Origin: Squalus acanthias
Lineage: Eukaryota
DNA: 64,000 nucleotides
Direction of reading: 5' to 3'
Assembly: GCA_030390025.1 (NCBI GenBank)
Contig: CM059431.1
Location: forward strand, 117,368,001-117,432,000
The position numbers and the translations under genes are program-made. The number at the start of each line of letters is the position of its first letter. Within the stretch, counting starts at the first letter, position 1. The notes beneath the pieces are model-generated. The model did not search any database. It saw nothing but the letters and a program-made list of their open reading frames with translations, and had not been told where the DNA came from. Shown piece after piece: positions 6,371 through 56,689 of this stretch.

Positions 6371-8892
6371 AAGAACATAAAAACATAAGAACGTAAGAAA
6401 TAAGAGCAGGATTAGACCATACGGCCCCTCGAGCCTGCTCCGCCATTCAATAAGATCATGGATGATCATCAACCTCAACTCCAATTTCCCGCCCGATCCC
6501 CATATCCCTTGATTCCCCAAGAGTCCAAAAATCTATCGATCTCTGCCTTGAGTATACTCAAAGACTCAGCCCTCTGGGGCAGAGAGTTCCAAAGATTCAC
6601 AACCCTCTGAGTGAAGAAATTCCTCCTCATCTCAGTCTTAAATGGACTACCCCTTATCCTGAGACTATGCCCCATAGTTCTAGATACTCCAGCCAGGGGA
6701 AGCAACCTCTCAGCATCTACCCTGTCAATCCCCTTCAGAATCTTCTATGTTTCAATGAGAACACCTCTCATTCTTCTAAACTCCAGAGAGTATAGGCCCA
6801 TTCTACGCAACCTCTCATCATAGGACAGCCCTCTCATCCCAAGAATCAATCTAGTGAACCTTTGTTGCACTGCCTCCAAGGCAAGTATATCCTTCCTTAG
6901 ATAAGGAGACCAAAACTGTGCACAGAACTCCAGGTGTGGTCTCACCAAGGCCCTGCACAATTGTAAGAAGTCGCACAACACCAGGTTATAGTCCAACAGT
7001 TTATTTGAAATTACAAGCTTTCGGAGCTCGACTTCTCATTTTTGTCCACCCCAGTCCAACACTGGCATCTCCACATCTGTACAATTGTAGCAAGACTTCC
7101 TTACACTTATACTCCAATCCCCTGGCAATAAAGGCCAACATGCCATTTGCCTTCATTATTGCTTGCTGTACCTGCATGCTAGTTTTCTGTATTTCTTGCA
7201 CGAGGACACCCAAATCTCTCTGAACACCAACATTTGAAAGTTTCTCACCATTTCAAAAATATTCTGTTTTTCTATTCTTCCTACCAAAGTGAATAACCTA
7301 ACATTTCCCTACATTATACTCCATCTGCCACCTTCCTGCTCACTCACTTAGTCTATCTATATCCCTTTGCAGACTCTTTGTGTTCTCCTCATAGCTTACT
7401 GTCCCACCTAGCTTTGTATCATCAGCAAACTTGGATACATTACACTCAGTCCCTTCATCTAGGTCAATAATATAGATTGTAAATAGCTGAGGCCCCAACA
7501 CTGATCCTTGCGGCACCCCACTAGTTACAGCCTGCCAACCTGAAAAAGATCCGTTTATCCCTACTCTCTGTTTTCTGTCCGTTAACCAATCCTCTATCCA
7601 TGCTATTATATTACTCCCAGCTCCATGAGTCCTAATCTTGTGTAATAACCTTTTATGTGGCACCTTATCCAATGCCTTTTGGAAATCCAAATATACTAGA
7701 TCCACTGGTTCCCCTTTATCTACCCTGCTAGTTACATCCTCAAAGAACTCTATTAAATTTGTCAAACGCGATTTTCCTTTCATAAGACCATGTTGACTCT
7801 GCCTAATCATGTTATGATTTTCGAAGTGACTTGATACCACTTCCTTAACAATGAATTACAGCATTTTCCCGATGACTGATGTCAGGCTAACTGGCCTGAA
7901 GATCCCTGTTTTTTCTCTCCCTCCTTTCTTGAATAGCGGTGTTACATTTGCAACCTTCCAATCCACTGGGACCATTCCAGAATCTGGGGAATTTTGGAAG
8001 ATCAAAACAAAGTCATCCACTATCTCTTCAGCCACCTCTTTTAGAACCCTAGGATGTAGGCCATCAGGCCCAGGGGATTTTTTGGCTTTTAGTCCCATTA
8101 GTTTTTCTTGTACTTTTTCTCTACTTATATTAATTACATTAAGTTCCTCACCATCATTTTTGGTAAGCTTTTTGTGTCTTCTACTGTAAAGACAGATACA
8201 AAATATTTGTTGAACAGTTCTGCCATTTCCTTATTCCCCATAATAATTTCTCCTGTCTCAGCCTCTAAGGGACCAACATTTACTTTTGCTACTCTTTTCC
8301 TTTTTACTTACTTGTAGAAACTCTTACAATCTGCTTTCATATTTCTTGCTAGTTTTCACTCATATTCTATTTTTTTCCTTTTAATCAACTTTTTGGTCAA
8401 CCTTTGCTGGTTTCTGAAACTCTCCCAACCTCAGGGTTACTATTGTTCTTTGCAACATTATAAGCTTCTTCTTTCAATCTATTGCTATCCTTAACTTCTT
8501 TAGTTAGCCACAGTTGGATCACTTTTCCCATAATGTTTTTGTTTCTCAATGGAATGTATTTTTGTTGAGAATATTTCTTGAAATATTTCTTTAAATGCTA
8601 GCCACTGCTTATCTACCGCCATACCTTTTAATCTATTTTTCCAATCTACCTTAGCCAACTTGCTCCTCATACCTATGTAATTGGCTTTTTTTAAGTTTAA
8701 GACTCTAGTTTCAGACTTAGGCAAGTCACTCTCAAAATTACAGTGAAATTCTATCATATTATGATCACTCTGCCCCAGAGGATCCTTTACTATGAGATTG
8801 CTAATTAACCCTGTCTCATTACACAATACAAGCTCAAAAATAGCCTGTTCCCTGGTTGGTTCCATGACATATTGTTCTAGGAAACTGTCCCA
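6371..8892 (-). mobile_element. CR1 LINE, 5'-truncated (end of endonuclease, RT, 3' UTR)
   Basis: ORF fragments [63 protein letters not shown]; (TTCTTATG)n-like tail at 6371-6400. Confidence 0.95.
6966..7076. mobile_element. 111-bp Penelope-like (family 1) terminal fragment with internal inversion, inserted in CR1
   Basis: Matches 18887-18990 in two oppositely oriented pieces; flanked by 13-bp TSD CTGCACAATTGTA / CTGTACAATTGTA (6953-6965, 7077-7089). Confidence 0.85.
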
Positions 8893-10962
8893 AAGAAAGA
8901 CTCTACAAGAAGGATGAACCATCTGTGGCTAACTAAGGAAGTTAAGGATGGTATCAAATTGAAGGAAAAGGCATACAATGTTGCAAAGATTAGTGGTAGC
9001 CCAGAGGGTTGGGAACTTTTTAGAAACCAGCAAAGGATAACTAAAAAATAATAAAGAGGGAGAAGGTAAATTATGAGAGTAAACTCGCAAAAAAATTAAA
9101 AAACAGACAGTAAGAGCTTCTATAGGTATATAAAAAGGAAGAGAGTAGCTAAAGTAAATGCTGGTCCCTTAGAGGATGAGACTGGGAAATTAATAATGGG
9201 AAACAGGGAAATGGCAAGACTTTGAACAAATATTTTGTATCGTTCTTCACGGTAGAAGACACTAAAAGCATCCCAATAATAATTGATAATCAATGGGCTA
9301 TAGGGAGGGAGGAACTTAAAACAATCACTATCACTAGAGAAAAAGCACTAGGCAAACTAATGGGAATAAAGGCTGACAAGTCCCCTGGACCTGATGGTCT
9401 GCATCCTAGGGTTTTAAAAGAAGTGGCTGCACAGATAGTGGATGCGTTGGTTGTAATCTACCAAAATTCCCTGGATTCTGGAGAGGTCCCAGCAGATTGG
9501 AAAACCGCAAATGTAACTCCTCAATTCAAGAAAGGAGGGAGACAGAAAGCAGGAAACTATAGGCCAGTTAGCCTAACATCTGTCATTGGGAAAATGCTGG
9601 AATCCATTATTAAGGAAGTAATAGCAGGACATTTAGAAAATCATAATACAATCAAGCAGAGTCAGCATGGTTTTATGAAAGGGAAATCATGTTTGACAAA
9701 TTTACTAGAGTTCTTTGAGGATGTAGCGAGCAGGGTGGATAAAGGGGAACCAGTAGATGTAGTGTATTTGGATTTCCAGAAGGCATTCGATAAGGTGTTG
9801 CATAAAAGGTTACTGCACAAGATAAGAGCTCATGATGTTGGGGGTAATATATTAGATTGGATAGAGGATTGGCTAACTAACAGAAAACAGATATTCGTTA
9901 AAAAATGGGTCATTTTCAGGTTGGCAAACTGTATCTAGTGGGGTGCCACAGGGATCAGTGCTGGGGCCTCAACTATTTACAATCTATATTAATGTCTTGG
10001 ATGAAGGGACCGAGTGTACTGTTGCCAAATTTGCTGACGATACAAAGATAGGTGGGAAAAAAAGTTGTGAAGGGTCACAAAGTGTCTGCAAAGGGATATA
10101 GATAGGTTAAGTGTGTGGACAAAAATTTGGCAGATGGTGTATAATGTGGGAAAATGTGAGGTTATCTACTTTGGTAGGAAGATTAAAAAAGCAAAATATT
10201 ATTTAAATGGAGAGAGACTACAGATTTCTGCGGTACAGAGGGATCTGAGTGTCCTCGTACATGAAACACAAAAAGTTAGCATGCAGGTACAGCAAGTAAT
10301 CAGGAAGGCAAATGGAATGTTGGCCTTTATTGCAAGGGGGATGGAGTATAAAAGTAGGGAAGTCTTGCTACAACTGTACAGGGCGTTGGTGAGACCACAC
10401 CTGGAGTACTGCGTACAGTTTTGGTCTCCTTATTTAAGGAAGGATATACTTGCATTGGAGGCAGTTCAGAGAAGGTTCACTAGGTTGATTCCTGAGTTGA
10501 AGCGGTTGTCTTATGAGGAAAGGTTGAGCAGGTTGGGCCTATACTCATTTGAGTTTAGAAGAATGAGAGGTGATCTTATTGAAACATGTAAGATTCTGAG
10601 GTGGCTTGACAGGGTAGATGCAGGGAGGATGTTTCCTCTCGTGGGGGAATCTAGAACTAGGGGACATAGTTTCAGAATAAGGGGTCGCCCATTTAAAACA
10701 GAGATGAGGAGGAAATTCTTCTCTCAGAGGGTCGGGAAACTTTGGAATTCTCTGCCCCAGAGAGCTGTGGAGGCTGGGTCATTGAATATATTTAAGGTGG
10801 AGATAGACAGATTTTTGAAAAATAGTGGAATCAAGGGTTATGGGGAGCGGGCAGGAAAGTGGAGTTGAACCCAAGATCAGATCAGCCTTGATCTTATTGA
10901 ATGGCGGAGCAGGCTCGAGGGGCCGAATGGCCTACTCCTGCTCCTATTTCTTATGTTCTTAC
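8893..10962 (+). mobile_element. CR1 LINE, 5'-truncated RT plus 3' UTR
   Basis: ORFs 9222-9938 and 10113-10868 with CR1 RT motifs (NYRPVSLTS, YLDFQKAFDKV, FADD, RPHLEYCVQFWSPY); TTCTTATG tail. Confidence 0.95.
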
Positions 10963-11639
10963 GGGTACAGCACAGCCCTCCTCCTCTGGACCTCCTCCAC
11001 CAGGACCTCCAGAGCCGCATCTGAGAAACTGTTCTCCCTCTCCCTTGGTCCTTGAGCCATCCTGCAACGTGCTGCTGTGTGCCAGCCAGCACACTCCACA
11101 CTTTCAGTGGAAGCAGGTGCAAGGAGCCCACATATACTGCTCAATGAAAATTGTGTCTAATCAGTGCTAAACCTGCAGGTGTCTCTGTTTTAGCACCTCC
11201 AGGCAAGTTCAAATTATGGTAGTCAGCAATTACGACCAAACAATGCGTGCTAAATCCAGATTTTTAAGCAGGTGTGTCTTATTAGCACAGCATCCATTTA
11301 GCGCCTGTTTTCACCCTTTGTCCAAAATAACCCCCAAACTGTTTTCAAAGGATTCAGGAACAGTTACATCATGAGGTCTTATCTGTGACATGTACCTTTG
11401 ATGTAGGTAAACTAAGTTGTTTAGAGAAGTATGGTTTTCAACAGTTATTTGGAGAGCTCGTAAGATACAGAAACCAAAAAGCTACTCTCTGTATACAACA
11501 TAGATTGACCACCTGTGCTGTATATCAATAACGTCTGTTCCGTATACTCCATCAAGTGTCTCGTGCTTATTTGAAGCGTGTCGTTGTGAACCACAGAAGG
11601 AAGGAGTTTGACTAACAGTTGATCCTTAACAATATCCAG

Positions 11640-11830
11640 AAGCACTTCACATACATGAATTACTTTGAAGTGCAGTAACTGTTGTTATGTGGGGAAAGCA
11701 ACAGCTAATTTCACACATTGAGGTCCTACAAGCAATAATGAGATGAATGATGAATTCATTTATTTTTGGTGGTGTTGATTGAGAGAGGAATGTTGTCCAG
11801 TGTACTGGGATTACCCTCCGCTCTTCCACA
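11640..11830 (-). mobile_element. Deu-domain SINE fragment (diverged)
   Basis: Reverse complement resembles the 14090-14385 copy. Confidence 0.65.
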
Positions 11831-11984
11831 AGCAATGACAATACAGAGGTTGAAGTGTGCTAAGATTGCCCAGGGCACCATTTTGGTTCTTGTCTCATTG
11901 GATACTTACAGGCTTTTGATTTTCTCATAGGATTTCCAAAATTGGGCTTTTTGCATTGGTAGTTAGATTTGGTAAGATTAGGAA

Positions 11985-12360
11985 ACATGTAAGATTCTGA
12001 GGGGGATTGACAGGGTAGATGCTGAGAGGTTGTTTCCCCTGGCCGGAGAGTCTAGAACTAGGGGGCATAGTCTCAGGATAAGGGATCAGCCATTTAAAAC
12101 TGAGATGAGGAGGAATTTCTTCACTCAGAGGGTGGTGAATCTTTGAAATTCTCTACCCAAAAGGGCTATGGATGCTGAGTCATTGAGTACATTCAAGGCT
12201 GAGATCGATAGATTTTTGGACTCGAGGGGAATCAAGGGATATGCGGATCAGGCAGTATAGTGGAGTTGAGGTCGAAGATCAGCTATGATCTTATTTAATG
12301 GCGGAGCAGGCTCGAAGGGCCGTATGGCCTTCTCCTGCTCCTAATTCTTGCGTTCTTATG
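11985..12360 (+). mobile_element. CR1 3' fragment
   Basis: Matches 10583-10960; ends TTCTTGCGTTCTTATG. Confidence 0.9.
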
Positions 12361-12475
12361 AAAGGATTAGTGGCATTTAAACTTCGTTGTTATCATTGGA
12401 CATGTTGCCGCAGATTTCTGTTTAACACAGAGATTGATAGAAATAACTTTCCCTCATATACCTCAAAAAGAATTT

Positions 12476-13776: not shown

Positions 13777-13904
13777 TTTAAATACTAGCTTAGAAATTCT
13801 TGCCAGTGAAAATGTGTCAGAACTGGGCGAACAGGGGCTGAAAACTGCAAGTTCAGAAAACAACTGTCATCCCACCTACTTTATGCATTGTGCAATTTCC
13901 TTAC

Positions 13905-14385: not shown

Positions 14386-14439
14386 TTCCCACGAAACGTC
14401 ATATAAAATGATGAACAACAAAGGCATTCCAGGTGATAT

Positions 14440-17500: not shown

Positions 17501-18886
17501 CTAGGTAACTGTCCCCAATCCGTCCATATGTCCTGCTAGGCTTTTTCTCACACTTGTTGACTTACAGTGTGGATGTTCCCCCCCCCCCCCCCACCACTAC
17601 TTTAAATATTTTCCCACTGTCATCTTTACCCGTTACAGTCGGAATGGATATATTTCTATTTGGCCTGGCCTGATGAGTCAGGCATTACTTTGTCTCCCAC
17701 CAATATTTCATGGTGATCCCTTCGCACTTCCACCTGCTCTGTTATTTGTCCCTTGTGTTTGGTCTTATCATTGGTAGTCTACATTGTAATAATACATTCC
17801 CTTTGCAGTTAGTCATTATGATCAGTTCAGTGACAGTCTTCAGCATTCTCATTCATCAGGCTGAGCTGGCATTGGTAATGAGTTTACAGGAAGTATAACA
17901 GGCTGAAAGGTGACTTTCACAATACAGGCACCATATCCATCACCACATTTCAGCCAAAAGGAGGATGGAGAATGGCACATAACAACACATTTCGTTCACC
18001 CACAGAGCTTAACTTTCAAGCAGCAATATGAGTGTGATTAGCTTGCATTTGGCTCTTTTGGAAGACACAGCTGAGGGGGTCATTGGCACCTTGACAGGAC
18101 TCTGTAGCATTGGTAGGACAAGAGCTTCTTCATCCACTTGATTATATTTTCTTTGAGATAGTTTCTTCACATGTAATACACTGTCACCTTGCTTTAAGAT
18201 AAATTATTGTCATGTACAATAATCGCCATGGGCTTTTCAGGAGGAAGCAGTTAATATACAACATGATAGCTGTGAAGCACTGGTAAAATTCTAACAATTT
18301 GAGAGAGCAAAATGCTTCTAATATAGAATGTGGCACATTGTGGTTTTTAATATATTGTTTTTAGACCAATTTGTAATTGGGATACATTCCTCAATGCCAA
18401 CATACAGCTCCTTTGATATTTACCAAATTCTTCCATCTTATTATTTCAACATATCTGTTCCTTCATTAGTGTAATAAAAAGACATAATTCTTGTTGAATA
18501 AATATTGGTTTAGAAACGGTGAATGAAACAGACCTATCAAGTTTAGTGAGTCTGATGCATATCTAAATAACTTCATGAATGAAAGACTAAAATACTATAT
18601 ATGGCTCAGGGAGATTTTGGACTAGCTCATTATATTGAATGTGACCTTTGAAGGTTTTAAATCCATTTCATGGTTGAGTGCAGTAATAAATGCCACAGCT
18701 GACAAGTGTATGAATGGATACTTAAACAACCTATGCTGAACATTTTCTCTGGTCATTTTGTCAAGTTGACATCTTTTTTGTGGGTTTGGAGCTGCATGTG
18801 TCAGCAGTAGCTGTGTAATAATGAGGGAAACATTAAAAAAAGAGCATTCTGTAGCCAGAAGAATCAACTCCACCGGGGATGGTTTG

Positions 18887-19276
18887 ATGCGGAGATGCCG
18901 GCGTTGGACTGGGGTGGACAAAATTGAGAAGTCGCACAACACCAGGTTATAGTCCAACAGATTTATTTAAAATTACAAGCTTTCGGAGCTATGCTGCCCC
19001 TTCTTCAGGTAAAGTTACTGTGAGAGAATCTACAAGAATTCACAGAATATAAACACAGAGAAAATGCAGAGATACAATTTTTTTTTTTACATCAAAGACA
19101 CACTAAGAGCATGAGATGTGTCCCAGGGGGTCCAACGTGTCAAAACACCTGCTGTCTGCATATCCTCTCCATTTGGGTTTGTTTTTTGTGTTTGTTTTTT
19201 GTGTTTGTTTTTTTTTTAAACTGGAAAGACAGGCAACGATGTCAAGTCACGTTCTGTAGCATGACATGAACCCAAT
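18887..19276 (-). mobile_element. Penelope-like family 1 solo pseudo-LTR
   Basis: Near-identical to 34019-34418; perfect 8-bp TSD ATGGTTTG (18879-18886, 19277-19284). Confidence 0.9.
18973..19012 (-). ncRNA. Minimal type I hammerhead ribozyme motif (PLE family 1)
   Basis: Minus strand UUAC-CUGAAGA-A-GGGGC[AGCAUA]GCUCC-GAAA-GC-UU-GUAA: core boxes, 5-bp stem II, stem I UUAC/GUAA, palindromic AAGCUU. Confidence 0.75.
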
Positions 19277-19444
19277 ATGGTTTGCACACACATTACTCAA
19301 ATAGTTTCGCAAGCTGATGTAGGTGTATAGCAAAGGTGACAATGGGGAAAACTGCCTTGACACCCTGCTAATGTTAAACAGCAAGGCGTTGCAAAGCAAC
19401 TGGTAAACAATTCCTGGGAATCACACTTTAGCATTAAATACCAA

Positions 19445-22150: not shown

Positions 22151-22169
22151 GGATTCGGCACTTTATAGC

Positions 22170-22555
22170 TTTTTGGACTCAACGTTGAATTCAACAACTT
22201 TAGTTCATAACCACCGCTCCCATTTTCTCAGACAGCAGGTGCTGTTAATGGGTCTGTTATTGTCATTTACACCTCCTCTGGACCCATCTTTTGTTTCTTC
22301 ATTGATATTTTTGCCTTTCACCATCATCCCTTTTGCCATTTAATCACTCCTGCCCTCCACCCTATCACAGACCTTCTGTTTTGTTCTTTCCTCCCCTCCC
22401 TTTTTTCACTGCTTCTGTACTTGCTTATAAATTGTTAAATCTCTAGCTTCTTCCAGTTCTGATGAAAGATCATTGACCTAAAACATTAATTCTGTTTGTC
22501 TCCACAGATGCTGATTGACGCTGAGTATTTCCAACATTTTCTGTTTTTATTAAAG
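22170..22555 (+). mobile_element. Penelope-like family 2 pseudo-LTR with decayed hammerhead (~22455-22492)
   Basis: LNVEFNNFSS C-terminus; CTGATGAAAGATCATTGACCTAAAACATT; matches reverse of 23640-24070. Confidence 0.8.
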
Positions 22556-23728
22556 AAAACACATGCTCAGTTCACATTCCTTTCTGGTTCCCGTAGGATC
22601 TGATTCCCTTAGATCTGATGTTCTCTAGGTGGATGTCTTTGGGCTGTTGCTTGGTAGAGAGTTGGTGAGTGATGGCATGTGGGATGCATTGCTAGCTGGG
22701 TAGGAAACAGGCCTGGCAGATCTTATCCCTGCTCCTCTGCTTCTTCTTGTTGGGTGACATCTAAAGGAGGATCAGAAGACAAGTGAGAATGGTTTGCAGA
22801 GGAGCAAAGTTCTCTTATGACTTGCAGGTAGAAAGAGTACATAAGAACATAAGAAATAGGAGCAGGAGTAGGCCTGCTCCACCATTTAATGAGATCATGG
22901 CTGATCTGATCTTGGGCTCAGCTCCATTTCCCTGCCCGCTCGCCATAACTCATCACTCCCTTATTGTTCAAAAGTCTGTCTATCTCCACCTTAAATATAT
23001 TCAATGACCCAGCCTCCACAGCTCTCTGGGGCAGAGAATTCCACAGATTTACGACCCTCTGAGAGAAGAATTTCCTCCTCATCTCAGTTTGAAATGGGCG
23101 ACCCCTTATTCTGAAACTATGCCCCCTAGTTCTAGATTCCCCCATGAGGTGAAACATCCTCTTTGCATCTACCTTGTCAACCCCCTTCAATATCTTATAT
23201 GTTTCAATAAGATCACCTCTCATTCTTCTAAACTCCAATGAGTATAGGCCCAACCTGCTCAACCTTTCTTCATCAGACAACCCCTTCATCTCAGGAATCA
23301 ATCTAGTGAACCTTCTCTGAACTGCCTCCAATGCAAGTATATCCCTCCTTAAATAAGGAGACCAAAACTGTACGCAGTACTCCAGGTGTGGTCTCACCAA
23401 TACCCTGTACAGTTGTAGTAGGACTTCCCTGCCTTTATACTCCAACCCCCTTGAAATAAAGGCCAACATTCCATTTGCCTTCCTGATTACTTGCTGTACC
23501 TGCATGCTAACTTTTTGTGTTTCATGCACAAGGTCCCCAGGTCCCTCTGTACTGCAGCATTTTGTAATCTCTCTCCATTTAAATAATAATTTGCTTTTTT
23601 CTTTTTCTTACCAAAGTGGATAACCTCGCATGATAGCAAAATACTGTGGATGCTGGAAATCCGAAATAACAACAGAAAACGCTGGAAAAACTCAGCAGGC
23701 CAGGCAGCATCCATGGAGAGAGAAACAG

Positions 23729-23765
23729 AGTTAACGTTTCAGGTCGAAGACCTTTCGTCAGAACT
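23729..23765 (-). ncRNA. Minimal hammerhead ribozyme motif (PLE family 2)
   Basis: Exact reverse complement of 24526-24562. Confidence 0.75.
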
Positions 23766-24525
23766 GGAAAAAAGCAGGAAATGAAATAGATTTAAAGCAA
23801 GTATAAAGCTGGGAAAAGGGGGAGGGGATGGAAGAACAAAAGGAGAGATTAAGAGACATTGAGAGACATTAAGAGATGATCAAGGCAAGAGGACGTGTTG
23901 ATGTAACAGGTTGAGGCTAAATGAAGTGTGAAATGCACTGGCAGAATGGAGGACAGCTGGCAGCTTCTGGGAGGAAAAAAAAGGGGGGGCCAAACAAAAG
24001 GGTGGATGAAAAAATAAAATATAAATGTGATAGGGGCCGAGGTTATGATCTAAAATTGTTGAACTCGATGTTGAGTCCAGAGGGCTGTAGGGTGCCTAAA
24101 CGAAAGATGAGGTGCTGTTCCTCGAGCTTACGCTGCGCTTCCGTGGAACAGTGTAATAGGCTGAGGACGGTGAGGTCAGAGTGGGAGTGGAGCGGAGAAT
24201 TAAAGTGACAGGCCACCGGGAGCTTGGGGTCCCCCTTACGGACTGAACGGAGGTGTTCCGCAAAACGGTCACCCAATCTGCGTTTGGTCTCCCCAATGTA
24301 GAGGAGACCACATCGTGAGCGGTGAATACAGTATACTAAATTGCAGGAAGTACAAGTAAATCGCTGTTTCACCTGGAAGGGGTGTTTGGGGCCCTGGACA
24401 GTGGGAAGAGGGGAGGTATAAGGGCATGTGTTACATCTTCTGCGCTTGCACGGGAAGGTGCCGGGCGAAGGGGAAGGGGTGCTGGGGTACTTGCTTTAAA
24501 TCTATTTCATTTCCTGCTTTTTTCC

Positions 24526-24562
24526 AGTTCTGACGAAAGGTCTTCGACCTGAAACGTTAACT
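24526..24562 (+). ncRNA. Minimal hammerhead ribozyme motif (PLE family 2)
   Basis: AGUU-CUGACGA-A-AGGUC[UUC]GACCU-GAAA-CG-UU-AACU; perfect 5-bp stem II, stem I AGUU/AACU, palindromic AACGUU. Confidence 0.8.
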
Positions 24563-25379
24563 CTGTTTCTCTCTCCAAGGATGCTGCCTGGCCTGTTGGA
24601 TAACCTCACACTTTCCCACATTATACTCCATCTACCAAATGTTTGCCCACTCACTTAGCCTGTCTATATCCCTTTGCAGATTCTTTGTGTCCTCTTCACA
24701 ACATGCTTTCCCACCTATCTTTGTATCATCAGCATATTTGGCTACATTGCACTCGGTCCCTTCATCCAACTCATTAATATAGATTGTAAATAGTTGAGGC
24801 CCCAGCACTGATCCCTGTGGCAACCCACTAGTTACCGTTTGCCAACCGGAAAATTACCCATTTATCCCAACTCTCTGCTTTCTGTTAGTTAGCCAATCCT
24901 CTATCCATGCTGATATATTACCCCCAACCCTGTGAGCTCTTATCTTGTGCAGTAACCTATTATGTGGCACCTTATCGAATGCCTTCTGGAAATCCAAATA
25001 CACCGCATCCACTGGTTCCCCTTTATCCACCCTGCTCGTTATATCCTCAAAGAACTCCGGCAAATTTGTCAAACATGATTTCCCTTTCATAAAACCATGC
25101 TGACTCTGCTTGACTGTATTATGATTTTCTAAATGTCCTGCTACTGCTTCATTAATAGTGGGCTCCAGCATTTTCCCATAATATGATGGCTTTTGATGTA
25201 GCCCTTTGACATGTTCTATGTGTAACGATAGCATCAGAAGAGGGAGAAGGCAGATGTTTTCCCCTCATGCAATTTAACACAGTAATTAAAATCCTTTTTT
25301 GACCAGTTAGATCTGATTTTTTTCATTTGAAGTGATATCTCTGCTCCACTCACATCACTTATAACACTGCTAGTATTCT

Positions 25380-32757: not shown

Positions 32758-34104
32758 ACGATTATAGCAAATATAATTTGAGGAACAGAAAAGGAAAATG
32801 AAAGAGAAATACTGATGATGAGATTAATCGTTATTTCTCCAGTCTTTTGGGTAACTTGTACTGATGGAGCTGGCTCAAACGTTTCAACCACATGGTTAGA
32901 AAAGTACATTTATTTCTCCTCTAGAAGCTCAACTGCATTATTATAAGTAGCAATCCTGTGAAATACTTAACAGGCCACAAACAAATAACAGATATAGTGG
33001 GTAGAGGTTCATCTTCAGCGGTTGTGTAAAACGGGCGGCATCACACAGGCCATTATACAATCTGCCCATTATTCAGTTCCACTTACTTCAAGATAAATTT
33101 CGAACCTAACCTGCATTAATCCAAGCCCCAAATTAATTACGATACTGAAATAATATTTTAAGCATTACAAAAATCTTTTTTTTTATTAGTTTATGGGATC
33201 AGGGCGTCGCTGTCAATGCCAGCATTTATTGCCCATCCCTAATTGCCCTTGAGAAGGTGGTGGTGAGCCTCCTTCTTGAACCGCTGCAGTCCGTGTGGTG
33301 ATGGTACTCCCACAGTTCTGTTAGCTAGGGAGTTCCAGGATTTTGACCCAGCGATGATGAAGGATCGGCGATATACTTCTAAGTCAGAATGGTGTGTGAC
33401 TTGGAGGGGAACTTGGAGGTGGTGGCGTTCCTATGCGCCTGCTGCCCTTGTCCTTCTAGGTGGAAGAGGTCGCAGGTTTGGGAGGCGCTGCCGAAGAAGC
33501 CTTGACGAGTTGCTGCAGTGCATCTTGTAGATGGCACACACTGCAGCCACAGAACACTGGTGGTGGAGGGAGTGAATGTTTAAGGTGGTGGATGGGGTGC
33601 CAATCAAGCGGGCTGCTTTGTCCTGGATGGTGTCGAGCTTCTTGAGTGTTGGAGCTGCACTCATCCAGGCAAGTAGAGAGTATTCCATCACACTCCTTAC
33701 TTGTGCCTTGTAGATGGTGGAAAGGCTTTGGGGAGTCAGGAGGTGAGATACTTGCCGCAGAATACCTAGCCTCTGACCTGCTCTTGTTGCCACAGTATTT
33801 ATGTGGCTGGTCCAGTTAAGTTTCGGGTCAATGGTGACCCCCAGGATGTTGATGGTGGGGGATTTAGCGATGGTAATGCCGCTGAATGTCAAAGGGCAGT
33901 GGTTAGACTCTCGCTTGTTGGAGATAGTCATTGCCTGGAACTTCTGTGGCGCGAATGTTACCTGCCACTTATCAGCCCAAGGCTGAACGTCATCCAGGTC
34001 TTGTTGCATGTGGTCATGATGCAGAGATGCCGGCGTTGGACTGGGGTGGACAAAAATGAGAAGTCGCACAACACCAGGTTATAGTCCAACAGATTTATTT
34101 AAAA

Positions 34105-34144
34105 TTACAAGCTTTCGGAGCTATCCTGCCCCTTCTTCAGGTAG
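34105..34144 (-). ncRNA. Minimal hammerhead motif (left arm)
   Basis: Reverse complement of 36001-36040. Confidence 0.75.
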
Positions 34145-34386
34145 AGTTACTGTGAGAGAATCTATCAGAATTCACAGAATATAAACACAGAGAAAATGCA
34201 GAGATTAAATCTTTCCCTACATCAAAGACACACTAAGAGCACAGCCAAGACAATGAGATGTGTCCCAGGGGGTCCAACGCGTCAAAACACCTGCTGGCCG
34301 CATATCCTCTCCATTTGGGTTTGTTTTTTGTGTTTGTTTCTTGTGTTTGTTTTTTAAAAACTGGAAAGACAAGCAACGATGTCAAG

Positions 34387-35021
34387 TCACGTTCTATAGT
34401 GTGACATGAACCCGATATCCCGATTGAGGCCGTCCTCATGAGTGCGGAACTTGGCTATCAGTTTCTGCTCGATGATTTTGCGTTGTCGTGTATCCCGAAG
34501 GCCGCCTTGGAGAACGCTAACCCGCAGATCCGAGGCTGAATGCCCTTGACTGCTGAAGTGTTCCCCGACTGGGAGGCAACCATCCTGCCTGGCGATTGTT
34601 GCGCGGTGTCCGTTCATACGTTGTCTCAGTGTCTGCATGGTCTCGCCGATGTACCATGCTCTGGGGCATCCTTTACTGCAACGTATCAGGTAGACAACGT
34701 TGGCCGAGTCACATGAGTATGTACCATGTACCTGGTGGGTAGTGTCCTCATGTGTGATGACGGTATCTGTGTTCATGATCTGGCATGTCTTGCAGAGGTT
34801 GCCGTGGCAGGGTTGTGTGGTGTCGTGGTCGCTGTTCTCCTGACAGCTGGGTAATTTGCTGCGAACGATGGTACTTTTGAGGTTAGGCAGCTACTTGAAG
34901 GCGAGTACTGGAGGCGTGGGGATGGCCTTAGTAAGGTGTTCGTCGTCATCGATGACATGTTGAAGGCTGCGAAGAACATGGCGTAGTTTCTCCGCTCCGG
35001 GGAAGTACTGGACGACGTAGG
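34387..35021 (-). pseudogene. Mirror copy of the PLE GIY-YIG ORF with a nonsense codon at 34891-34893
   Basis: ORF 34387-34776 differs by 2 aa from 35368-35757; CAG to TAG change upstream. Confidence 0.9.
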
Positions 35022-35757
35022 ATATGACGCTCGACTCATCGATCGACAGTTCCGACGGGCCACAGCGAATAACCGCATAGACCTCCTCAGAAGACGAACC
35101 CGGGACACAACCAACAGAGTACCCTACGTCGTCCAGTACTTCCCCGGAGCGGAGAAACTACGCCATGTTCTTCGCAGCCTTCAACATGTCATCGATGACG
35201 ACGAACACCTTGCTAAGGCCATCCCCACGCCTCCACTACTCGCCTTCAAGCAGCTGCCTAACCTCAAAAGTACCATCGTTCGCAGCAAATTACCCAGCTG
35301 TCAGGAGAACAGCAACCATGACACCACACAACCCTGCCACGGCAACCTCTGCAAGACATGCCAGATCATGAACACAGATACAGTCATCACACATGAGGAC
35401 ACTACCCACCAGGTACATGGTACATACTCATGTGACTCGGCCAACGTTGTCTACCTGATACGTTGCAGTAAAGGATGCCCCAGAGCATGGTACATCGGCG
35501 AGACCATGCAGACACTGAGACAACGTATGAATGGACACCGCGCAACAATCGCCAGGCAGGATGGTTGCCTCCCAGTCGGGGAACACTTCAGCAGTCAAGG
35601 GCATTCAGCCTCGGATCTGCGGGTTAGCGTTCTCCAAGGCGGCCTTTGGGATACACGACAACGCAAAATCATCGAGCAGAAACTGATAGCCAAGTTCCGC
35701 ACTCATGAGGACGGCCTCAATCGGGATATCGGGTTCATGTCATGCTATAGAACGTGA
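35020..35757 (+). pseudogene. PLE ORF C-terminus (linker, Cys motif, GIY-YIG endonuclease), open over ~245 codons, 5'-truncated
   Basis: GYDARLIDRQFRRA..PLLAFKQLPNLKSTIVRS..CHGNLCKTC..VVYLIRCSKGCPRAWYIGETMQTLRQRMNGHR..GLN. Confidence 0.9.
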
Positions 35758-36000
35758 CTTGACATCGTTGCTTGTCTTTCCAGTTTTTAAAAAAACAAAC
35801 ACAAGAAACAAACACAAAAAACAAACACAAATGGAGAGGATATGCAGCCAGCAGGTGTTTTGACGCGTTGGACCCCCTGGGACACATCTCATTGTCTTGG
35901 CTGTGCTCTTAGTGTGTCTTTGATGTAGGGAAAGATTTAATCTCTGCATTTTCTCTGTGTTTATATTCTGTGAATTCTGATAGATTCTCTCACAGTAACT

Positions 36001-36040
36001 CTACCTGAAGAAGGGGCAGGATAGCTCCGAAAGCTTGTAA
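36001..36040 (+). ncRNA. Minimal hammerhead motif (right arm)
   Basis: CUAC-CUGAAGA-A-GGGGC[AGGAUA]GCUCC-GAAA-GC-UU-GUAA. Confidence 0.75.
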
Positions 36041-38302
36041 TTTTAAATAAATCTGTTGGACTATAACCTGGTGTTGTGCAACTTCTCATTTTTGTTGCGT
36101 GTGAGCATGGACTTCTTCATTATCTGAGGAGTTGTGAATGGTGCTGAACACTGTGCTGTCATCAGCGAACATCCCCATTTCTGACCTTATGTTGGAGGGA
36201 AGGTCATTGATGAGGCAGCTGAAGATGGTTGGGCCTAGGACACTGCCCTGAGGAACTCCTGCAGCGATGTCCTGGGGCTGTGATGATTGACCTCCAACAC
36301 CACTACTATCTTCCTTTGTGCTAGGTATGACTCTTATCTTAGAACTTCCAGGAGGTGGAATTCTGAGGTAGGCATGCTGGTGGACTTGCCATTTGGAGTG
36401 AAACCTGGATCTGCTGGGTTTCCACCGCATTTACAAAGAGGAAGGAAATCCCGATTGGTGGGGTGGGAAAGCAGTAGTTTCAGGCTGTTTCTGGCATGTT
36501 CTTGGGTTATCCCAGGAATCCTGTCAGATAGGCTCTGATAAGCCCAGTGGTACTTTATGTCTGCTGACTGCAGGCATTTGTACTATTCTAGGCCTCTGTA
36601 AGACTCTTACTTGCCAGTTTGGTGTCAGGACTCTTGACTTCCAGCTTGGGATGAAGATTCAGCAATGTAAGTGATTCCAAATCTTTGGCCTGTATCCCCC
36701 ATTGGATAGGCCCCTATTATTTAAATGACCCATTCCCTGGGATTTGGGACAGCATCACGGCTAAGTCAGAATAGTGGGCAAAAGTTAAGCCAACATGATT
36801 CTATCTAGTCCATTTATAGTTAGCAATTGTCCCACTTGATAATTTTCTTCTGCAGAATTTGTGGATATAGAATGGGATTCATAAGTCATAGTTTAAAGAT
36901 AGGACCACTGGTTATCATTGTAGGTTCAGAGCTGACTCAAAGCTCCCACACAGAATGAAATCACAACAAGAACTCAGGTAATTACATGATAGAGATATGA
37001 TGATATGCTTGGCATCACACACTACCTGCATATTAGTATGATAGTATCTGGTATGTCATGCTTTCCAATTACAGAGAGTAAGTTGTCTCTGAAAGCAAAT
37101 ATAGCTCTACATGTGTGATTAATTATATTTGAATTTGTGGAGAAACTAGCAATGACATGAAGGTCATGTTTCTGTTTCTCCTGAATTGCCGGAAAAATAA
37201 TATATGAGTTGAAGTTCTGCATGTTCAAAATTTGGGGCTCTAATAGGCCTATTTGTCATCAAATGCATTGAACTTGCAAGAAGGCCAGATTGCTGAAGTT
37301 TCCTCTCAATGTCCCCACATTAACCACTATTCATCAAGATCAGGGCAATATGACTGTAGATGGAAATTGATAGAATTTAGAATTTAGCAGTTAGCCATGA
37401 AAGCTGCAGAGGGAAAGTTAAAGCAGCAGATGTGGTGAAAGAGGAGGGTGCAGTGGGAATGATTTTGGTTAACTCAGAAGCGATGGTAGGTTCTGAATCT
37501 TTAGGAATCTGCATAAGAAAAGAATAGGTGGCCCAAGAAAATTGTTTATCCAGAGATTGACAAGAAGGTTGCAATGACGTTGAAGGTAACTGTCAGTTTT
37601 ACAAAGAGAGTGCAGTTCACTATGAACTGGAATTCTAAATCCTCAAATCAACATGTAATGATTCAGTTTTTGACTTGACACGACAGGCAGAGAGCCTTGT
37701 CCACTGGAAATGCACTTCAGAAGTTTGAGCACACATTGTCCATTATTTTCTTGCCTTTCATTTAAATAGTCAGAAAATCTTCTGCAGCGCACATTAGGAA
37801 GCTCAAAGTTAGAAATTTATCCCTGTAGATCCACTATCTTGTAAGCCGACAGATAGGCCGACTAAAATTTGTTTCTTTCATCCAAATCTAGATTTAATAT
37901 GTCTTTCAGTAACGGCCGGGAAAACTCCACTGGGGCCAATAAACCCACTGCAAAGGTTGTGGCCTTCACTTCAGGATTCTTTCTCTAACTGCAGCTGCCA
38001 AATACATTGTAATGTATCCTACCAGTGACATAATCTATCTGCACGCTGAAAGAACTTGCGCTGTTTTATATGGCTGGGCATTATTAAAGCCAATTCAAAT
38101 TAGTTTCATTGAAGGCAGGCCTTAATGCTCGATATCTGTTCTAAATTTACTTGACACAAATTTCCATCTTTGTCCTCTTGTCCTAAGTTCTTGATGCATT
38201 TAAAAGTATTAATCGGGGTTTAAGTTATTTATACGATTCAGTATCATATAACTTAAATGAAGTCCTCCCTTAGCCTTCTTCATTTTGTACTATAACACTA
38301 AT

Positions 38303-42272: not shown

Positions 42273-42434
42273 ATTATTACAGTATAACAACACTGCAACA
42301 TGGAGCATGCAGCATACTTCCACCATCGCAAGTTCCAACAGAATAAAACCATTCTGTTATTTAAATTTATACAAATAACTTGAATAACCTTGTAAAATCA
42401 GTCAATATGGCAAATTAAATCTCTAAATTATATA

Positions 42435-44470
42435 AAATAAAAGCAGAAAATGCTGGAAACACTCAACAGTTCAGACAGCATCTTTGGAGAGAGAGAAACA
42501 GAGTTAACGGGCTGGATTTTGCGGGGGGTGAACAGGCGTGATCAGTGGCGGGTCGGATGGGAAAGTGTTTTTGTTCCCCAGCGGGTCGGGACCCCACTGT
42601 GAACCTGCCACCACGCGCCTTTCCCCGATGTCAGGTCTGTCAACGCTGAGCAGACCCGACAAGCAACGGCGGGTTCACAGCGGGGGATCCAATTCAGGTA
42701 ATTACTGGCTTGTTTAGATCCACTTAAGAATGAATTTCAGCTCACCTTCTGCATTTGACGGCTTGCCCACGGAGTCCACGCCAGTCGATGCAGGAGTTCA
42801 GTGGCCATTAAATCAGCTGTTGCGTTGACAGCTTCAAATGTACAGTAAAAGCTCCCACCTTACAGAGATATCTTTGCTCAGCCACAAACATTTCCTCATT
42901 GCATTTTCACAACAGATTCACCATGCTGCAAGTCTTTACACAAGTCTCCATCCCATCTGACCTCATTACCTCTCTCTCACCATTGACAGATCGATTCTGT
43001 CATCTCTACTTCACCTGTCATCTATTCCATCAGCTTGTGTGCCCTTTATACTCTCTCACTTTGGTCCTCAGAATCCCACCACGATCAGCCTCAACACCAG
43101 CAGCACCAGGCATGCCAGCAGCACCAACAACGCCACCGACCTTCTCTGCCATCAACTCATGCTGCACAGGACACAGGGCATCAGTACATGACCACATTGT
43201 TGCCTGGGAGGCCAGGGATGGCCTCAACATGGCCAGATTTACTTCACTTGACGCTGTAAACCCTGGCTGCCACATGATGCGCCAGGTTGGCACCACCCCA
43301 CAGCAGCACCATAAAGCATCCCTACAATGTCCAAGCCATTCCATTCAAACTCATGACCATTGCGGGGGGTACCGTTATGTCTCACCATTCACTGTAACTC
43401 AATAATTCACTTCCAAAGGTGCACACGAATCTGTCCAAGAACGCAAAGTGTTGAAAATAAAGGTTTCAATGTTTGACAGTACATTAACAGAACCTTGACA
43501 TGAACATTGCATAAAACACCCAAGTGCCTACCCTTGTGTGTTGTTAGTTGGTATGATTGCAGTAGGATGAGGGTGAGTGTGAGGGGTGGCTAGTGAGATG
43601 GGGAAGTGATAATGTAGATAGAGAGGGAGGGGTGGAGGTGCAAGCTAAGTTGGTGTGAGTAAGGGTAGGATAGGGAAGGCAGAGTGATGAGGATGTGATG
43701 AGAGGCACAGCAGGATGAGGTTGAGTGTGGCTTTGTAATAACGTTTCATGATCTATTGAGATCATTGAAACCTTTGCAGCACTGCAGCCTGGTCCTCCTG
43801 ACCACATCCCTGCTTATGCCCTCCTCTGCAATGTGCAACCAGGCTGTGTTGATCTCCTGGGGATGTCTCTTCCACCCATGGGAAGGGAAGAGGACCTCCC
43901 TGCGTGCAAGCATATGGAGGGAGTCATGGGAGAACCTGGGTGCAGCCCTCTGCCTCTGCAGTGCTTGTCATTGTTTGCAGTACCTCAATGCTGTAGGACA
44001 CTGACAGCAGAAATATCAAAAGAAAATTGGCCATGGTCCCTTTAAGGAATCCGGCTGATGATGCGTCATCAAATGACGTCATCAGATCCGCTTCCTCTAA
44101 TTGGCCGGGAAACGCGCTGGGCAAGCCCACTCTCGGCAAATTAATTTCAGAGGCCAAGATGGAGACAGCAGCGGGGTCGGGACCCACCACCGACGTCGCC
44201 TGCCATGAACCCGCTGAGGTTCGTCAAATTGCGGCCTTCGTTTCAGGTCGATGACTGTTCCTCAGGACTGGAATATGTTAGAGATGAACAGCTTTTAAGC
44301 AAATACAAAGCCAGGAGGGTAGGGAAGGAACAAAAGGGAGAAGTCTCTGATAGGGTGGAAGGCAGGAGTGATTAAATGAGAAAAGGCATGATGATGCAAG
44401 GCAAATGGAGGTGATAATGAGACGAGTGAATAAACAAAAACAGGTCCAAATAAGGTGTAAATCGTTACAG
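42435..44470 (-). mobile_element. PLE family 2 pLTR (42435-42508 plus 44237-44470) split by a Harbinger insertion
   Basis: GAAACAGAGTTAAC | (TTC)GTTTCAGGTCGATGAC rejoins into the pLTR seen at 23720-23760. Confidence 0.8.
42509..44236. mobile_element. Internally deleted Harbinger (transposase tail ~43160-43250; Myb exon 1 - ~43745-43990)
   Basis: Termini GGGCTGGATTTTG / CAAATTGCGGCC; HIVAWEARDGLNMARFT (compare HIAAREVQDGLIMARFT at 29650); RQRAAPRFSHDSL..QCCKGFNDL. Confidence 0.85.
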
Positions 44471-45107
44471 CAGACATGATGGGCCAAATGGCCTCCTTCT
44501 GTACTGTATCATTCCATTAGAGCAGAGAAGGGGGGTAGAAGTATTAAATTATACAGCTGATTTAACTCACATGCTCAAAATCTGTGGTTTACCTCTAACT
44601 GAGGCAGTTCTACATAAAATACAAGACCAAAAGCCCCAGTTTCACGCTGTGATTTACTACAAAGTGGGACAAGCCTATATGGCTTACAGTCTCAAGCTAA
44701 AGGAGCTTAACGTCATTGTGTATTGTATTTATCCCATAACTATTTCGAATTGACACTGTCATAGGCAATTTTCAAACACAATTGAGGCTTGTTAAAAAGT
44801 AGCTATGATGATTTTTTAGTTGACTTCTTGTTGGACCATTTACACGTATTGCACTGTAATGGGCCTGGGAAATGTTAGACTTCTGGCTCATGTCTTATTC
44901 TGCTCCAATACTTCCTACAAAATAGGAAGTGTAGGTACAGCTTTAAGGTGCTGCACTGGTATTTTAAAGGCTTCACACAGGAACTCTCACCCTTCCCTGA
45001 CTTCAGCATTCTCAGTGTGCCATAGAAAGTGTACTGGGAGCACAACTGTATGGTAACAAGTGCACCTTGGAATACCCGAGCTGTTCCCTCAGTGCGTCAG
45101 TGGTGCA

Positions 45108-47451: not shown

Positions 47452-48324
47452 CTTGGAGAAAAAAAAAACAGCCATTTACTGGATTTTCAAAGGCTGAACT
47501 GTATCAAATGATTGCAATAGGAAGCCTATAATTAAATGGCAAATGCATTATATGGAACAAAATCTGTTTTGTTCCTTAATATTCTTGAAGCCACTCTGTC
47601 AGACATTCTGCCCCATCATCCGTAACATCATTTTCCTTTCATCACACAGTGTTCTGGCAAAATTGAAACAGAGATACATTCAAAGTGATACGTGGACTGT
47701 TGTGTTGGAACTGACTTTATGCAGAATTCTTGCAAATTCACATTTATTTGGAATTTATTGCCATCCCAAATAAAGTACTAAACCTGACTGCAGTGAAATA
47801 ACTTGGAATAAAATTGAAATGTGGCATATAATTTGAACTGCTTGGTTGGCAATTAACATGTTGTCCAAGTCAGCTTTCAAAGACATTATTTGACAGAACA
47901 GCAATAATGAAGTTGCATTTAATTAACATTCATTGGCATATTAACCTGTGCTTTGTTTGGCAGAAACCAACACTTAACTTTGTTATTAATTGATCATTAA
48001 GCAAAAACTGCAGATGCAGAAACTCTGAAACAAAAACAGAAAATGCTGAAAACACTCAGGAGGTTAGTCAGTATCTGTGGAGAGAACAGAGAAAAACAAA
48101 ACCAACTTGTATATATATGGAACTCTATTCGTCCCGAGGTACTTCAGAGACAGGCAATCAGAAATACGTGGATGCCAAGACAGGCTTTCCTGGAGACTTG
48201 TGCCATTATAATATCGTAGGGCTGGTTTTATTGCACAGAAGTGACTTACGCCACGCCATACTTTCCTGGGACTTTTGCGACACTCTGCCATTTTCCTCCC
48301 CAAAACGGTAAACTCTTATTTATT

Positions 48325-52943: not shown

Positions 52944-52944
52944 G

Positions 52945-53730: not shown

Positions 53731-53945
53731 GGGGGAGTGGGACTAGCTGAAGTGCTCTTGCAGAGAGCTGGCACGGGCTCAACAGGCTGAATGGCCCCCT
53801 ACTGTGCTGTAACCATTCTATGATTCTATTTATTTATCCCTCCTATTAAAAGGAGTTTCTTGTCCTTGTTTTACAGGTCTCTAATCCATAGAGGGAAATG
53901 AACCTTCAACACACACTTGAAGGTGGTTTATGCTTTTATTTTCAG

Positions 53946-54086
53946 ATGACTGTCCCCAACTTTTTACAAGCAGTTTCATAACACGGTCCATTGACTTATT
54001 GCACCAGCTCCTGAAGGCCATCATACTGCAAGCAGCGATGGATTTGCCTATTTCTTTCTGTGAATTTAAGCATGCTTTGCCTGAAG
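53946..54086 (+). other. Candidate exon of unknown gene (141 nt, phase 1-1)
   Basis: TTTTATTTTCAG acceptor, GAAG|GTAAGT donor, one open frame xDCPQLFTSSFITRSIDLLHQLLKAIILQAAMDLPISFCEFKHALPE; no recognised homology. Confidence 0.35.
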
Positions 54087-55934: not shown

Positions 55935-56226
55935 ACTTCCTTGAGGGGCCGTGGGGAGCGCTCTCGCTGTTCCTGGCCCACAAGGAGTGCGATAAGAGGC
56001 ACTTACCTTCTGGAGCCGGAGTTCCCGCCTCCCTTTTGCTGGCGGGTTTCCCGAGTCTTGGGAAACCTGCGTGGCAGCTGTCAAGTTTAAATCAGGCTCC
56101 CAATTGCACTGTGGGAGCCTGATTTAAATATGTTAATTGTGTCCTGCCTCTCCAAGACCAGACACTCGCACAGTACGCTACCCACAGCCATAAAAATAGC
56201 AGCAGGCAGGTTGGGAACCCATTTTT
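55935..56226. repeat. ~290-bp MITE segment duplicated at 57220-57512 (direct orientation)
   Basis: Near-identical sequence including a 17-bp perfect hairpin stem. Confidence 0.9.
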
Positions 56227-56265
56227 GCAGAACACTTCTCCAAATGGACAAGAACATGCAATAAG

Positions 56266-56562
56266 TAGGTCAGGCAGCATCTGTGGAGAGAGAAACAGAG
56301 TTAACATTGCAGGTCGATGACCCTTCGTCAGAACTGGAAAAAGCTGGAGCTGGAACAGGTTTTTAAGCAAGTGTTGGGGCAGGGAAAGTGGGGAGGGGAG
56401 GAAAGAACAAAAGGGAAGTTCTGTGATAGGATGGAAGGCAGGAGAGATTAAGAGACAAAAGGGATGATGGTGCAAGGTAAAAGGAGATGATAATGGGACA
56501 AGCTAAGAAGTATTTTCTGTTTTTATTTTAGATTTCCAGCATCTGCAGTATTTTGCTTTTGT
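56266..56562. mobile_element. PLE family 2 pLTR with inversion (body -, 3' tail +)
   Basis: 16-bp TSD AAGAACATGCAATAAG / AAGAACATGTAATAGG; decayed hammerhead at ~56299-56335 (-). Confidence 0.85.
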
Positions 56563-56689
56563 AAGAACATGTAATAGGAGGGTTTACAACGTCCCTCTTG
56601 CCTCATTTGCATAAAATGACCCTGCTTACATCTAACTATTCCGTCCCCATTGGGGGAAACCCCAGGGCAACATAAAGCGAGTAGAGAAC

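What the first reader, a model, noticed from the sequence alone, without database searches (positions are those of the whole stretch)
6953..56578. Four PLE insertions share an inverted architecture with family-specific second breakpoints and long TSDs
Seen: inserts 6966-7076, 23631-24596, 34019-36091 and 56266-56562 each have the true 3' end at one TSD and an inverted piece at the other (TSDs of 13, 14, ~18 and 16 bp). The inverted arm starts at nearly the same site per family: CGACTTCT(CATTTTTG), ~32-40 nt from the 3' end in family 1, and GCTGCCTG(G/A)CCT, ~65 nt from the end in family 2. Overlap between arms ranges from a small deletion through 8 bp and 108 bp to ~970 bp. The one non-inverted copy (18887) has an 8-bp TSD. 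Inference: a programmed two-site (twin-priming-like) integration, in which both target strands prime reverse transcription, the second at the pLTR/tail boundary. It may use two templates, since the large overlaps are hard to make from a single RNA.
Basis: partly seen in the sequence, partly recalled or inferred. Interest (0 to 1): 0.7.

Follow-up and report, generated by a model that had tools for sequence, protein, structure and literature searches.

The report
Double-primed Penelope insertions in a shark
Four real back-to-back insertions of Penelope-like jumping genes in a shark-like genome follow a layout already described for this class, and their junctions suggest that both cut DNA strands likely start copying one RNA at two fixed points, a testable account of how these elements integrate.

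Summary
The four inserts are real. Each is a head-to-head pair of 5'-truncated arms of a Penelope-like element (PLE), with the tail on one arm only. Two TSD lengths need correcting: 13, 14, 12 and 14 bp rather than 13, 14, ~18 and 16; the first two are proven by empty paralogous sites. The layout is published (PMC3846280, PMC8557442), as are two internal RT start sites bounding the tail and extension of both strands in vitro (PMC11167929). The family-1 short end is a genome-wide pile-up (70 of 1148 and 55 of 902 partly laid contigs). The family-2 short end (-62 to -65) is not among the displayed peaks, which lie at about 0 and -33, so family 2 likely has three end tiers. Microhomology is only 0-4 nt. 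Two templates are not needed: two tail arms stop at the second start site, and the ins3 arms share 25 of 30 family-variable sites. Likely mechanism: double priming on one RNA. I found no paper stating this for PLEs, but this scan noted it before on other DNA (18 notes, at least 9 genomes, this one included).

The parts
6953..6965 (.). ins1 left TSD copy (13 bp; right copy 7077-7089, 1 mismatch) in a CR1-like LINE
   Evidence: empty paralogous sites 10369-10381 and 23405-23417
6966..7028 (-). ins1 tail-less arm, family 1, from inside hammerhead stem II to -40
7029..7076 (+). ins1 tailed arm, family 1, -47 to 0; overlaps the other arm by 8 nt
7077..7089 (.). ins1 right TSD copy
18879..19284 (-). 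one-armed family-1 copy 18887-19276 with tail, hammerhead motif and 8-bp direct repeats (18879-18886, 19277-19284; 2 nt shared with the element end)
22154..22551 (+). solo family-2-like copy ending at the middle tier (-34); no TSD found
23617..23630 (.). ins2 left TSD copy (14 bp; right copy 24597-24610, 1 mismatch) in a CR1-like LINE
   Evidence: empty sites 10155-10168 and 7290-7303
23631..24489 (-). ins2 tailed arm, family 2, ~860 nt: GIY-YIG fragment with CX4CxxC linker (24046-24495 frame), 3' region, hammerhead (core starts 23761), ~65-nt two-unit tail
24488..24596 (+). ins2 tail-less arm, -172 to about -64, hammerhead at 24530; 2 differences from the other arm over ~111 nt
24597..24610 (.). 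ins2 right TSD copy
34001..34012 (.). ins3 left TSD copy (12 bp; right copy 36092-36103, 1 mismatch) in a LINE RT fragment read on the minus strand
34013..35021 (-). ins3 tailed arm, family 1, ~1.0 kb, EN region, hammerhead core at 34140
35020..36091 (+). ins3 tail-less arm, ~1.07 kb; open frame to 35757 with CX4CxxC linker and GIY-YIG core; hammerhead at 36005; ends -35..-31 (4-nt microhomology with the TSD)
36092..36103 (.). ins3 right TSD copy
42435..44470 (-). solo family-2-like copy ending at the middle tier (-33), split by another ~1.7-kb insertion (42510-44238); right boundary approximate
48000..48091 (-). short solo family-2-like end with full tail; no TSD found
56250..56263 (.). ins4 left TSD copy (14 bp; right copy 56563-56576, 1 mismatch)
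56264..56509 (-). ins4 tail-less arm, family 2, about -284 to -63
56510..56562 (+). ins4 tailed arm, last ~52 nt; ~11 nt missing between the arms
56563..56576 (.). ins4 right TSD copy

Best explanation
These are four head-to-head, 5'-truncated insertions of two endonuclease-bearing Penelope-like retroelement families with 12-14-bp target duplications, likely made when both cut target strands prime reverse transcription on one element RNA at two fixed internal start sites. Shown: the anatomy, TSDs, unlike ends in 4 of 4 inserts, the genome-wide family-1 short end, and one source lineage for the ins3 arms. Inferred steps: (1) the enzyme nicks both strands 12-14 bp apart, leaving 3' overhangs; (2) one end starts at the outer site (tailed arm), the other 30-65 nt further in (tail-less arm), the exact base being tuned by 0-4 nt of pairing; (3) the tailed cDNA either stalls at the inner primer (ins1, ins4: overlap +8 and -11) or goes on by displacing the inner cDNA or by using a second repeat of a tandem transcript (ins2, ins3); (4) the two cDNA 3' ends are joined with 0-3 nt of microhomology and filled in. 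The inserts are dead 5'-truncated copies.
For: TSDs beyond chance and proven at empty sites. Proteins carry the RT-linker-GIY-YIG order in full-length relatives. Family-1 ends pile at 34057 with diverse flanks: 70 of 1148 and 55 of 902 partly laid contigs in two studies of organism A; the two window short ends lie 2 and 3 nt from it. In 3 of 4 inserts neither arm is contained in the other, and ins4 has no overlap at all, which one folded-back cDNA cannot give. ins3 arms agree at 25 of 30 family-variable sites, 3 of them near-private, and the 5 that differ are private to the left arm. All five long arms run through the predicted hammerhead cut, so the template was uncut there, as in vitro. PMC11167929: two internal start sites bound the tail, both strands are cut and extended, dimer predicted.
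Against: Only four inserts; 4 of 4 unlike pairs has P=0.06 under free choice. Contigs cannot tell whether the 34057 ends belong to two-armed inserts. The family-2 inner site used here is not among the 24 displayed loose-end rows (1196 hidden). In ins2 the tailed arm runs 690 nt beyond the tail-less arm, which needs full displacement, a tandem transcript or a second RNA. Shared alleles could also come from two RNAs of one locus or later gene conversion. The in-vitro work is on a Poseidon-clade element, found no difference in start site between strands, and does not discuss inverted copies.
Confidence: 0.65

Rival explanations
1. Two RNAs: a dimeric complex holds two transcripts and each cut end copies its own.
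For: Overlaps of ~108 and ~968 nt are simplest with two templates. The anole protein is predicted to dimerise. L1 has a described case of two ends extended on different mRNAs (bioRxiv 2024.12.14.628481, passage).
Against: 0 of 4 like-ended pairs. The tailed arms of ins1 and ins4 stop within 8-11 nt of the other start site, which independent templates do not predict. The ins3 arms are 98.6% alike and share subfamily alleles in a family where the other window copy is 90-95% alike.
Confidence: 0.2
2. Fold-back: one strand primes on itself (perhaps an antisense RNA) to give a hairpin that the endonuclease resolves asymmetrically, leaving the tail on one side (PMC3846280 Discussion; PMC8557442).
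For: It is the published reading. ins3 could be a hairpin with a 95-nt loop trimmed unevenly; the ins1 centre holds a 6-bp palindrome.
Against: ins4 has a gap and ins1 only 8 nt of overlap, so neither is a hairpin. No long palindrome at any of the 4 centres. Internal start sites in vitro explain the tail without a resolution step.
Confidence: 0.1
3. Ordinary L1-type twin priming: the second end anneals wherever 2-5 bases match, and the clustering is chance or sequence bias.
For: Geometry, TSD length and the short TSD of the plain truncated copy parallel L1 (PMC2912911 passages). ins3 has 4 nt and ins2 2 nt of microhomology at the inner end.
Against: About 125-fold pile-up at one base in family 1. 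ins1 has 0 nt. Joint chance of both pairs clustering is 0.003 over a 200-nt range. Long overlaps are not part of the L1 model as read.
Confidence: 0.05

Closest known systems
Complex insertions of endonuclease-positive PLEs (Adineta vaga Pen2a/Pen2/Pen3a, PMC3846280; general scheme in PMC8557442 Fig. 2)
   Same: Head-to-head inverted 5'-truncated copy, tail on one end only, TSD around the unit, minimal hammerhead near each end, arms of unequal length.
   Different: TSDs here are 12-14 bp against 8-10 bp in the Adineta examples read; the family-2 offset is ~62-65 nt (two ~30-nt units) against the stated 30-40 bp; two inserts have almost no overlap, so they are not hairpins.
Anolis Poseidon PAc in vitro (PMC11167929)
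   Same: Two preferred ends a tail-length apart downstream of a hammerhead; uncleaved template used; inner start in a stem-loop region.
   Different: PAc is Penelope/Poseidon clade; both families here have the CX2-5CxxC linker of Neptune/Nematis. The parts of that paper read do not treat inverted inserts or TSDs.
L1 twin priming (as described in PMC2912911)
   Same: Two target ends primed on one RNA, cDNAs joined at the centre with short microhomology, long TSD with inverted and shorter with a plain truncated copy.
   Different: No poly(A); the inner start is fixed by the RNA rather than by target microhomology; overlaps reach ~1 kb.

Membership tests
EN+ Penelope-like elements | RT followed by a C-terminal GIY-YIG endonuclease in one ORF | tested here: met
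   EN region in the window for both families (Pfam GIY-YIG hit for family 2 only, E=0.0019, below cut-off). RT is truncated away in the window but present in relatives with DKG, YxDD, linker, YIG in order (P0001 at 88%, P0003; P0033, P0043 at ~52% to family 2).
EN+ Penelope-like elements | [quoted passage not shown] | tested here: met
   Family 1 has both cysteines between the two core halves and downstream histidines; the single family-2 copy keeps one of the two.
EN+ Penelope-like elements | Minimal hammerhead motif with palindromic helix III in the terminal repeat | tested here: met
   Pattern scan finds 5 motifs in the window, all in these elements; Rfam gathering scan found none; cleavage not testable.
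EN+ Penelope-like elements | Inverted 5'-truncated copy, one-sided 30-40-bp tail, TSD | tested here: met
   4 of 4 inserts; family-1 offset 31-44 nt; family-2 offset 62-65 nt, about two units.
EN+ Penelope-like elements | Direct partial tandem (pLTR) before a full-length copy | not testable with these tools
   No full-length copy in the window and no genome held.
Neptune/Nematis clades | CX2-5CxxC linker between RT and EN | tested here: met
   CX4CxxC in both families; definition from PMC8557442 passages.
Neptune/Nematis clades | RT phylogeny places it in the clade | not tested
   No named reference sequences were available to the tools.
Penelope/Poseidon clade | Linker Zn-finger absent | tested here: not met
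   Linker present in both families.
L1-type twin priming | Second primer placed by 2-5 nt of target-RNA microhomology at a variable internal site | tested here: not met
   Inner ends have 0, 4, 2 and 0-2 nt and cluster at fixed sites.
L1-type twin priming | Both cDNAs from the same RNA, joined at the centre | tested here: inconclusive
   Abutting arms in ins1 and ins4 and shared alleles in ins3 fit; two RNAs of one locus or conversion not excluded.

The most novel reading that the evidence does not exclude
PLEs integrate by programmed double priming on a single uncut RNA whose start sites are set by the RNA itself. In both families the tail pairs back with the stretch just upstream of the inner start (9-bp helices, two compensatory pairs between ins2 and ins4). 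In family 2 a duplicated tail unit gives a ladder of three start sites ~30 nt apart, the inner two lying 4-8 nt before a repeated motif. The overlap length then records whether the trailing cDNA stalled at, or displaced, the leading one.
Probability: 0.35. Interest if true: 0.6.

Novelty: new member of a known kind. Interest (0 to 1): 0.36.

Why it matters
How PLEs make their inverted ends and one-sided tail is stated as open in the papers read (PMC8557442, PMC11167929). If double priming on one RNA is right, it joins the genomic signature to the in-vitro start sites and gives sharp predictions (mixed end pairs only, 12-14-nt stagger, overlaps piling near zero) that can be tested on the very many copies in shark genomes. 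PLE RTs are the closest retroelement relatives of telomerase, so RNA-defined internal start sites are of wider interest. These four copies add only a small sample to that case.

Tried and rejected
Pattern scans for more loci found nothing usable: viral contigs 0 and 0, metagenome 0, and 51 loci of which 0 match either family. Rfam gathering scan: 0 matches. Whole-end folding is no more stable than shuffles (z 0.14, -1.24, -0.06), so the helices rest on pairing and two compensatory pairs only; the family-1 helix has probability 0.34 in one copy and 0.89 in the other. A test of whether the tail encodes the ORF's N-terminus found no match to full-length relatives. No RNA holder was listed; run X20 is only guessed to be RNA, so expression and splicing were not tested. 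The 23716 loose-end group was considered as indirect support for the family-2 inner site and rejected as inconclusive. The 18-bp and 16-bp TSD readings were rejected for 12 and 14. Hammerhead cleavage as the cause of arm ends was rejected: the long arms cross the cut site and 5' ends pile 31-32 nt upstream of it. No empty site was found for ins3 or ins4. The supplements of PMC11167929 gave only 7,325 characters of text and no hits; its Fig. S2 could bear on tail spacing and was not seen.
Full report
Setting. The window is repeat-rich vertebrate DNA. The closest named proteins to both element families come from sharks and rays. No whole genome is held. Family 1 (ins1 at 6966, ins3 at 34013, solo copy 18887) and family 2 (ins2 at 23631, ins4 at 56264) share no detectable DNA similarity, and their EN regions are about 37% alike as protein. 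Distances below are from 34019 for family 1 and 23631 for family 2, negative towards the element's 5' end.

Observation. All four inserts consist of two arms joined at their 5' ends, with both 3' ends against the target duplication. ins1: tail-less arm from hammerhead stem II to -40, tailed arm -47 to 0, overlap 8 nt. ins2: tailed arm -859 to 0, tail-less arm -172 to about -64, overlap ~108. ins3: tailed arm ~1.0 kb, tail-less arm ~1.07 kb reaching 95 nt further 5' and ending at -35 to -31, overlap ~968. ins4: tail-less arm about -284 to -63, tailed arm the last ~52 nt, ~11 nt missing. The tail is on the shorter-reaching arm in three inserts and on the longer in one.

TSDs. With one mismatch allowed the repeats are 13, 14, 12 and 14 bp; 3 of 3000 random junction pairs reach 12. 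For ins1 and ins2, left and right flanks searched separately overlap by exactly 13 and 14 bp in two empty LINE paralogues each. Neither correction has an empty site behind it. The 8-bp repeat of copy 18887 is modest (50 of 3000 by chance) and includes 2 nt shared with the element end. Of three solo family-2-like ends tested, two gave no TSD and one an 11-bp AT-rich candidate. A link between inversion and TSD length cannot be drawn from 4 against 1, though L1 shows the same trend (PMC2912911, passages).

Identity. Both families have a CX4CxxC linker before a GIY-YIG core, full-length relatives with RT, linker and EN in that order, and minimal hammerhead motifs with palindromic helix III; all 5 motifs found in the window lie in these elements (motif type from PMC4209133, parts 1-2 of 4 read). 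By the linker they are Neptune/Nematis-like, not Poseidon (PMC8557442, passages); no tree was built.

Are the breakpoints fixed? I laid contigs of public runs on one arm of each family. Family 1: the largest displayed loose-end site in both studies of organism A is 34057 (-38), with 70 of 1148 and 55 of 902 partly laid contigs and unrelated flanks, about 125 times the uniform expectation; a second site at -28 has 27 contigs in X5. Only 24 rows were shown and 925 hidden, and the outer end appeared only in X20. The window's two short ends lie 2 and 3 nt from the peak. Family 2: displayed 3'-end peaks are at -1 to -4 (245, 153, 282, 479 contigs) and at -32 to -34 (262 in organism B; 493, 503, 452 in organism E); the -62 to -65 site is not among the 24 rows shown (1196 hidden), and the middle tier was not displayed for organism A. 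In the window, family-2-like ends fall at about 0 (3), -33 (2) and -64 (2). The family-2 terminus repeats a 9-nt motif at a 29-nt interval, and the two inner tiers lie 4-8 nt before a motif copy. Microhomology at the inner ends is 0, 2, 4 and 0-2 nt, enough to shift an end by a few bases but not to set it. Contigs cannot say which ends belong to two-armed inserts.

One template or two? Four of four inserts pair a tailed with a tail-less end (P=0.06 if ends were chosen freely). In ins1 and ins4 the tailed arm stops within 8-11 nt of the other start site, as expected if the second primer sat on the same RNA. For ins3 I compared the arms at 30 of the 40 family-variable rows shown, leaving out 10 rows with low shares in organism A: the arms agree at 25, including 3 alleles that 95-99% of X1 depth lacks, and the 5 that differ are all private to the left arm. 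The ins2 arms agree at 12 of 13 rows typed. Depth sums are crude, and later gene conversion or two RNAs of one locus would look the same. Long overlaps can come from one RNA if the trailing cDNA displaces the leading one (no RNase H family was found in three relatives; displacement by non-LTR RTs is recalled, not tested) or if the transcript is a partial tandem, as PLE loci often are (PMC8969392, passage). A single folded-back strand cannot give ins4 or ins1.

Known work. The inverted 5'-truncated copy, the 30-40-bp tail at one end and the TSD are described for Adineta (PMC3846280, passages and Discussion) and as general PLE traits (PMC8557442, passages); those papers explain them by self-priming or by endonuclease resolution. 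PMC11167929 (parts 1-2 of 4 read) shows that the anole enzyme cuts and extends both strands, starts at two internal sites that bound the tail, uses uncleaved RNA and is predicted to be a dimer; it does not discuss inverted inserts or TSDs in the text searched. I found no paper that applies double priming to PLE inverted ends in searches with Penelope + twin priming + inverted (2 papers, listings only, off topic), Penelope + head-to-head + TSD, Penelope-like + target-primed + both strands from 2024, Penelope-like + cryo-EM + dimer from 2023 and Penelope + Neptune + shark (0). The library lacks most subscription papers, including the 2005-2006 PLE reviews, so this is weak evidence of absence. 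Earlier notes of this scan reach the same reading on other windows of this genome and on at least 8 other genomes; they are unchecked and are not counted as support.

Verdict. The feature is real and is the standard complex insertion of endonuclease-bearing PLEs, here in two Neptune-like shark families. The best mechanism is double priming at RNA-defined sites on one template (0.65), ahead of two templates (0.2), fold-back (0.1) and microhomology-placed twin priming (0.05). What these copies add is small but usable: zero-overlap inserts that exclude fold-back, shared alleles in a 1-kb overlap, a probable three-step ladder in family 2, a tail-closing helix with two compensatory pairs, and a 5'-end pile-up at a splice-acceptor-like site. 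Interest 0.36.

Noticed in passing
window 23764-23765 (also 34150): Family-2-like 5' ends pile up here in all four runs (200; 147 and 112; 253; 191 contigs, unrelated flanks). In element sense this is a pyrimidine run plus CAG directly before hammerhead helix I, like a 3' splice acceptor; in D. virilis Penelope the intron ends at the 5' end of helix I (PMC4209133). It is 31-32 nt upstream of the hammerhead cut. It may be a transcript start or a splice junction. Family 1 has a similar site at 34150 with no displayed pile-up.
   Followed up: partly
window 23647-23655 with 23705-23713; 34037-34044 with 34084-34091: In both families the tail can pair with the stretch just upstream of the inner start site (9 bp); ins2 and ins4 differ by two compensatory pairs. 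Whole-end folding is not above shuffles.
   Followed up: partly
window 42424-44555: A family-2-like copy ending at the middle tier is split by a ~1.7-kb insertion and may be closed by an 11-bp AT-rich repeat at 44545, with an oppositely oriented piece at 44478-44520 that resembles a CR1 3' end (resemblance recalled). It could be a second arm copied from another RNA.
   Followed up: partly
window 6956-6965, 56254-56259, 34005-34008: Three of the four TSDs contain a short palindrome (10 bp in the ins1 target, 6 bp central in ins4, 4 bp central in ins3); not tested against chance.
   Followed up: no
window 34013-34018 and 23629-23631: Both tailed ends stop at or beside an ATG in element sense, which could be the start of the next copy's ORF; not confirmed from proteins.
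   Followed up: partly
window 6366-12360 and 22872-25264: Several CR1-like LINE fragments in both orientations, 82-92% alike; ins1 and ins2 sit about 200 nt apart in two copies of this family, and ins3 in another LINE.
   Followed up: partly
window 59400-60010: G-rich array with a 17-nt period and longer-range 48-nt units.
   Followed up: no
P0006, P0012, P0014, P0016, P0023, P0025, P0028: Several annotated shark and ray host-gene isoforms contain translated pieces of these PLE families, probably exonised repeats or annotation artefacts.
   Followed up: no
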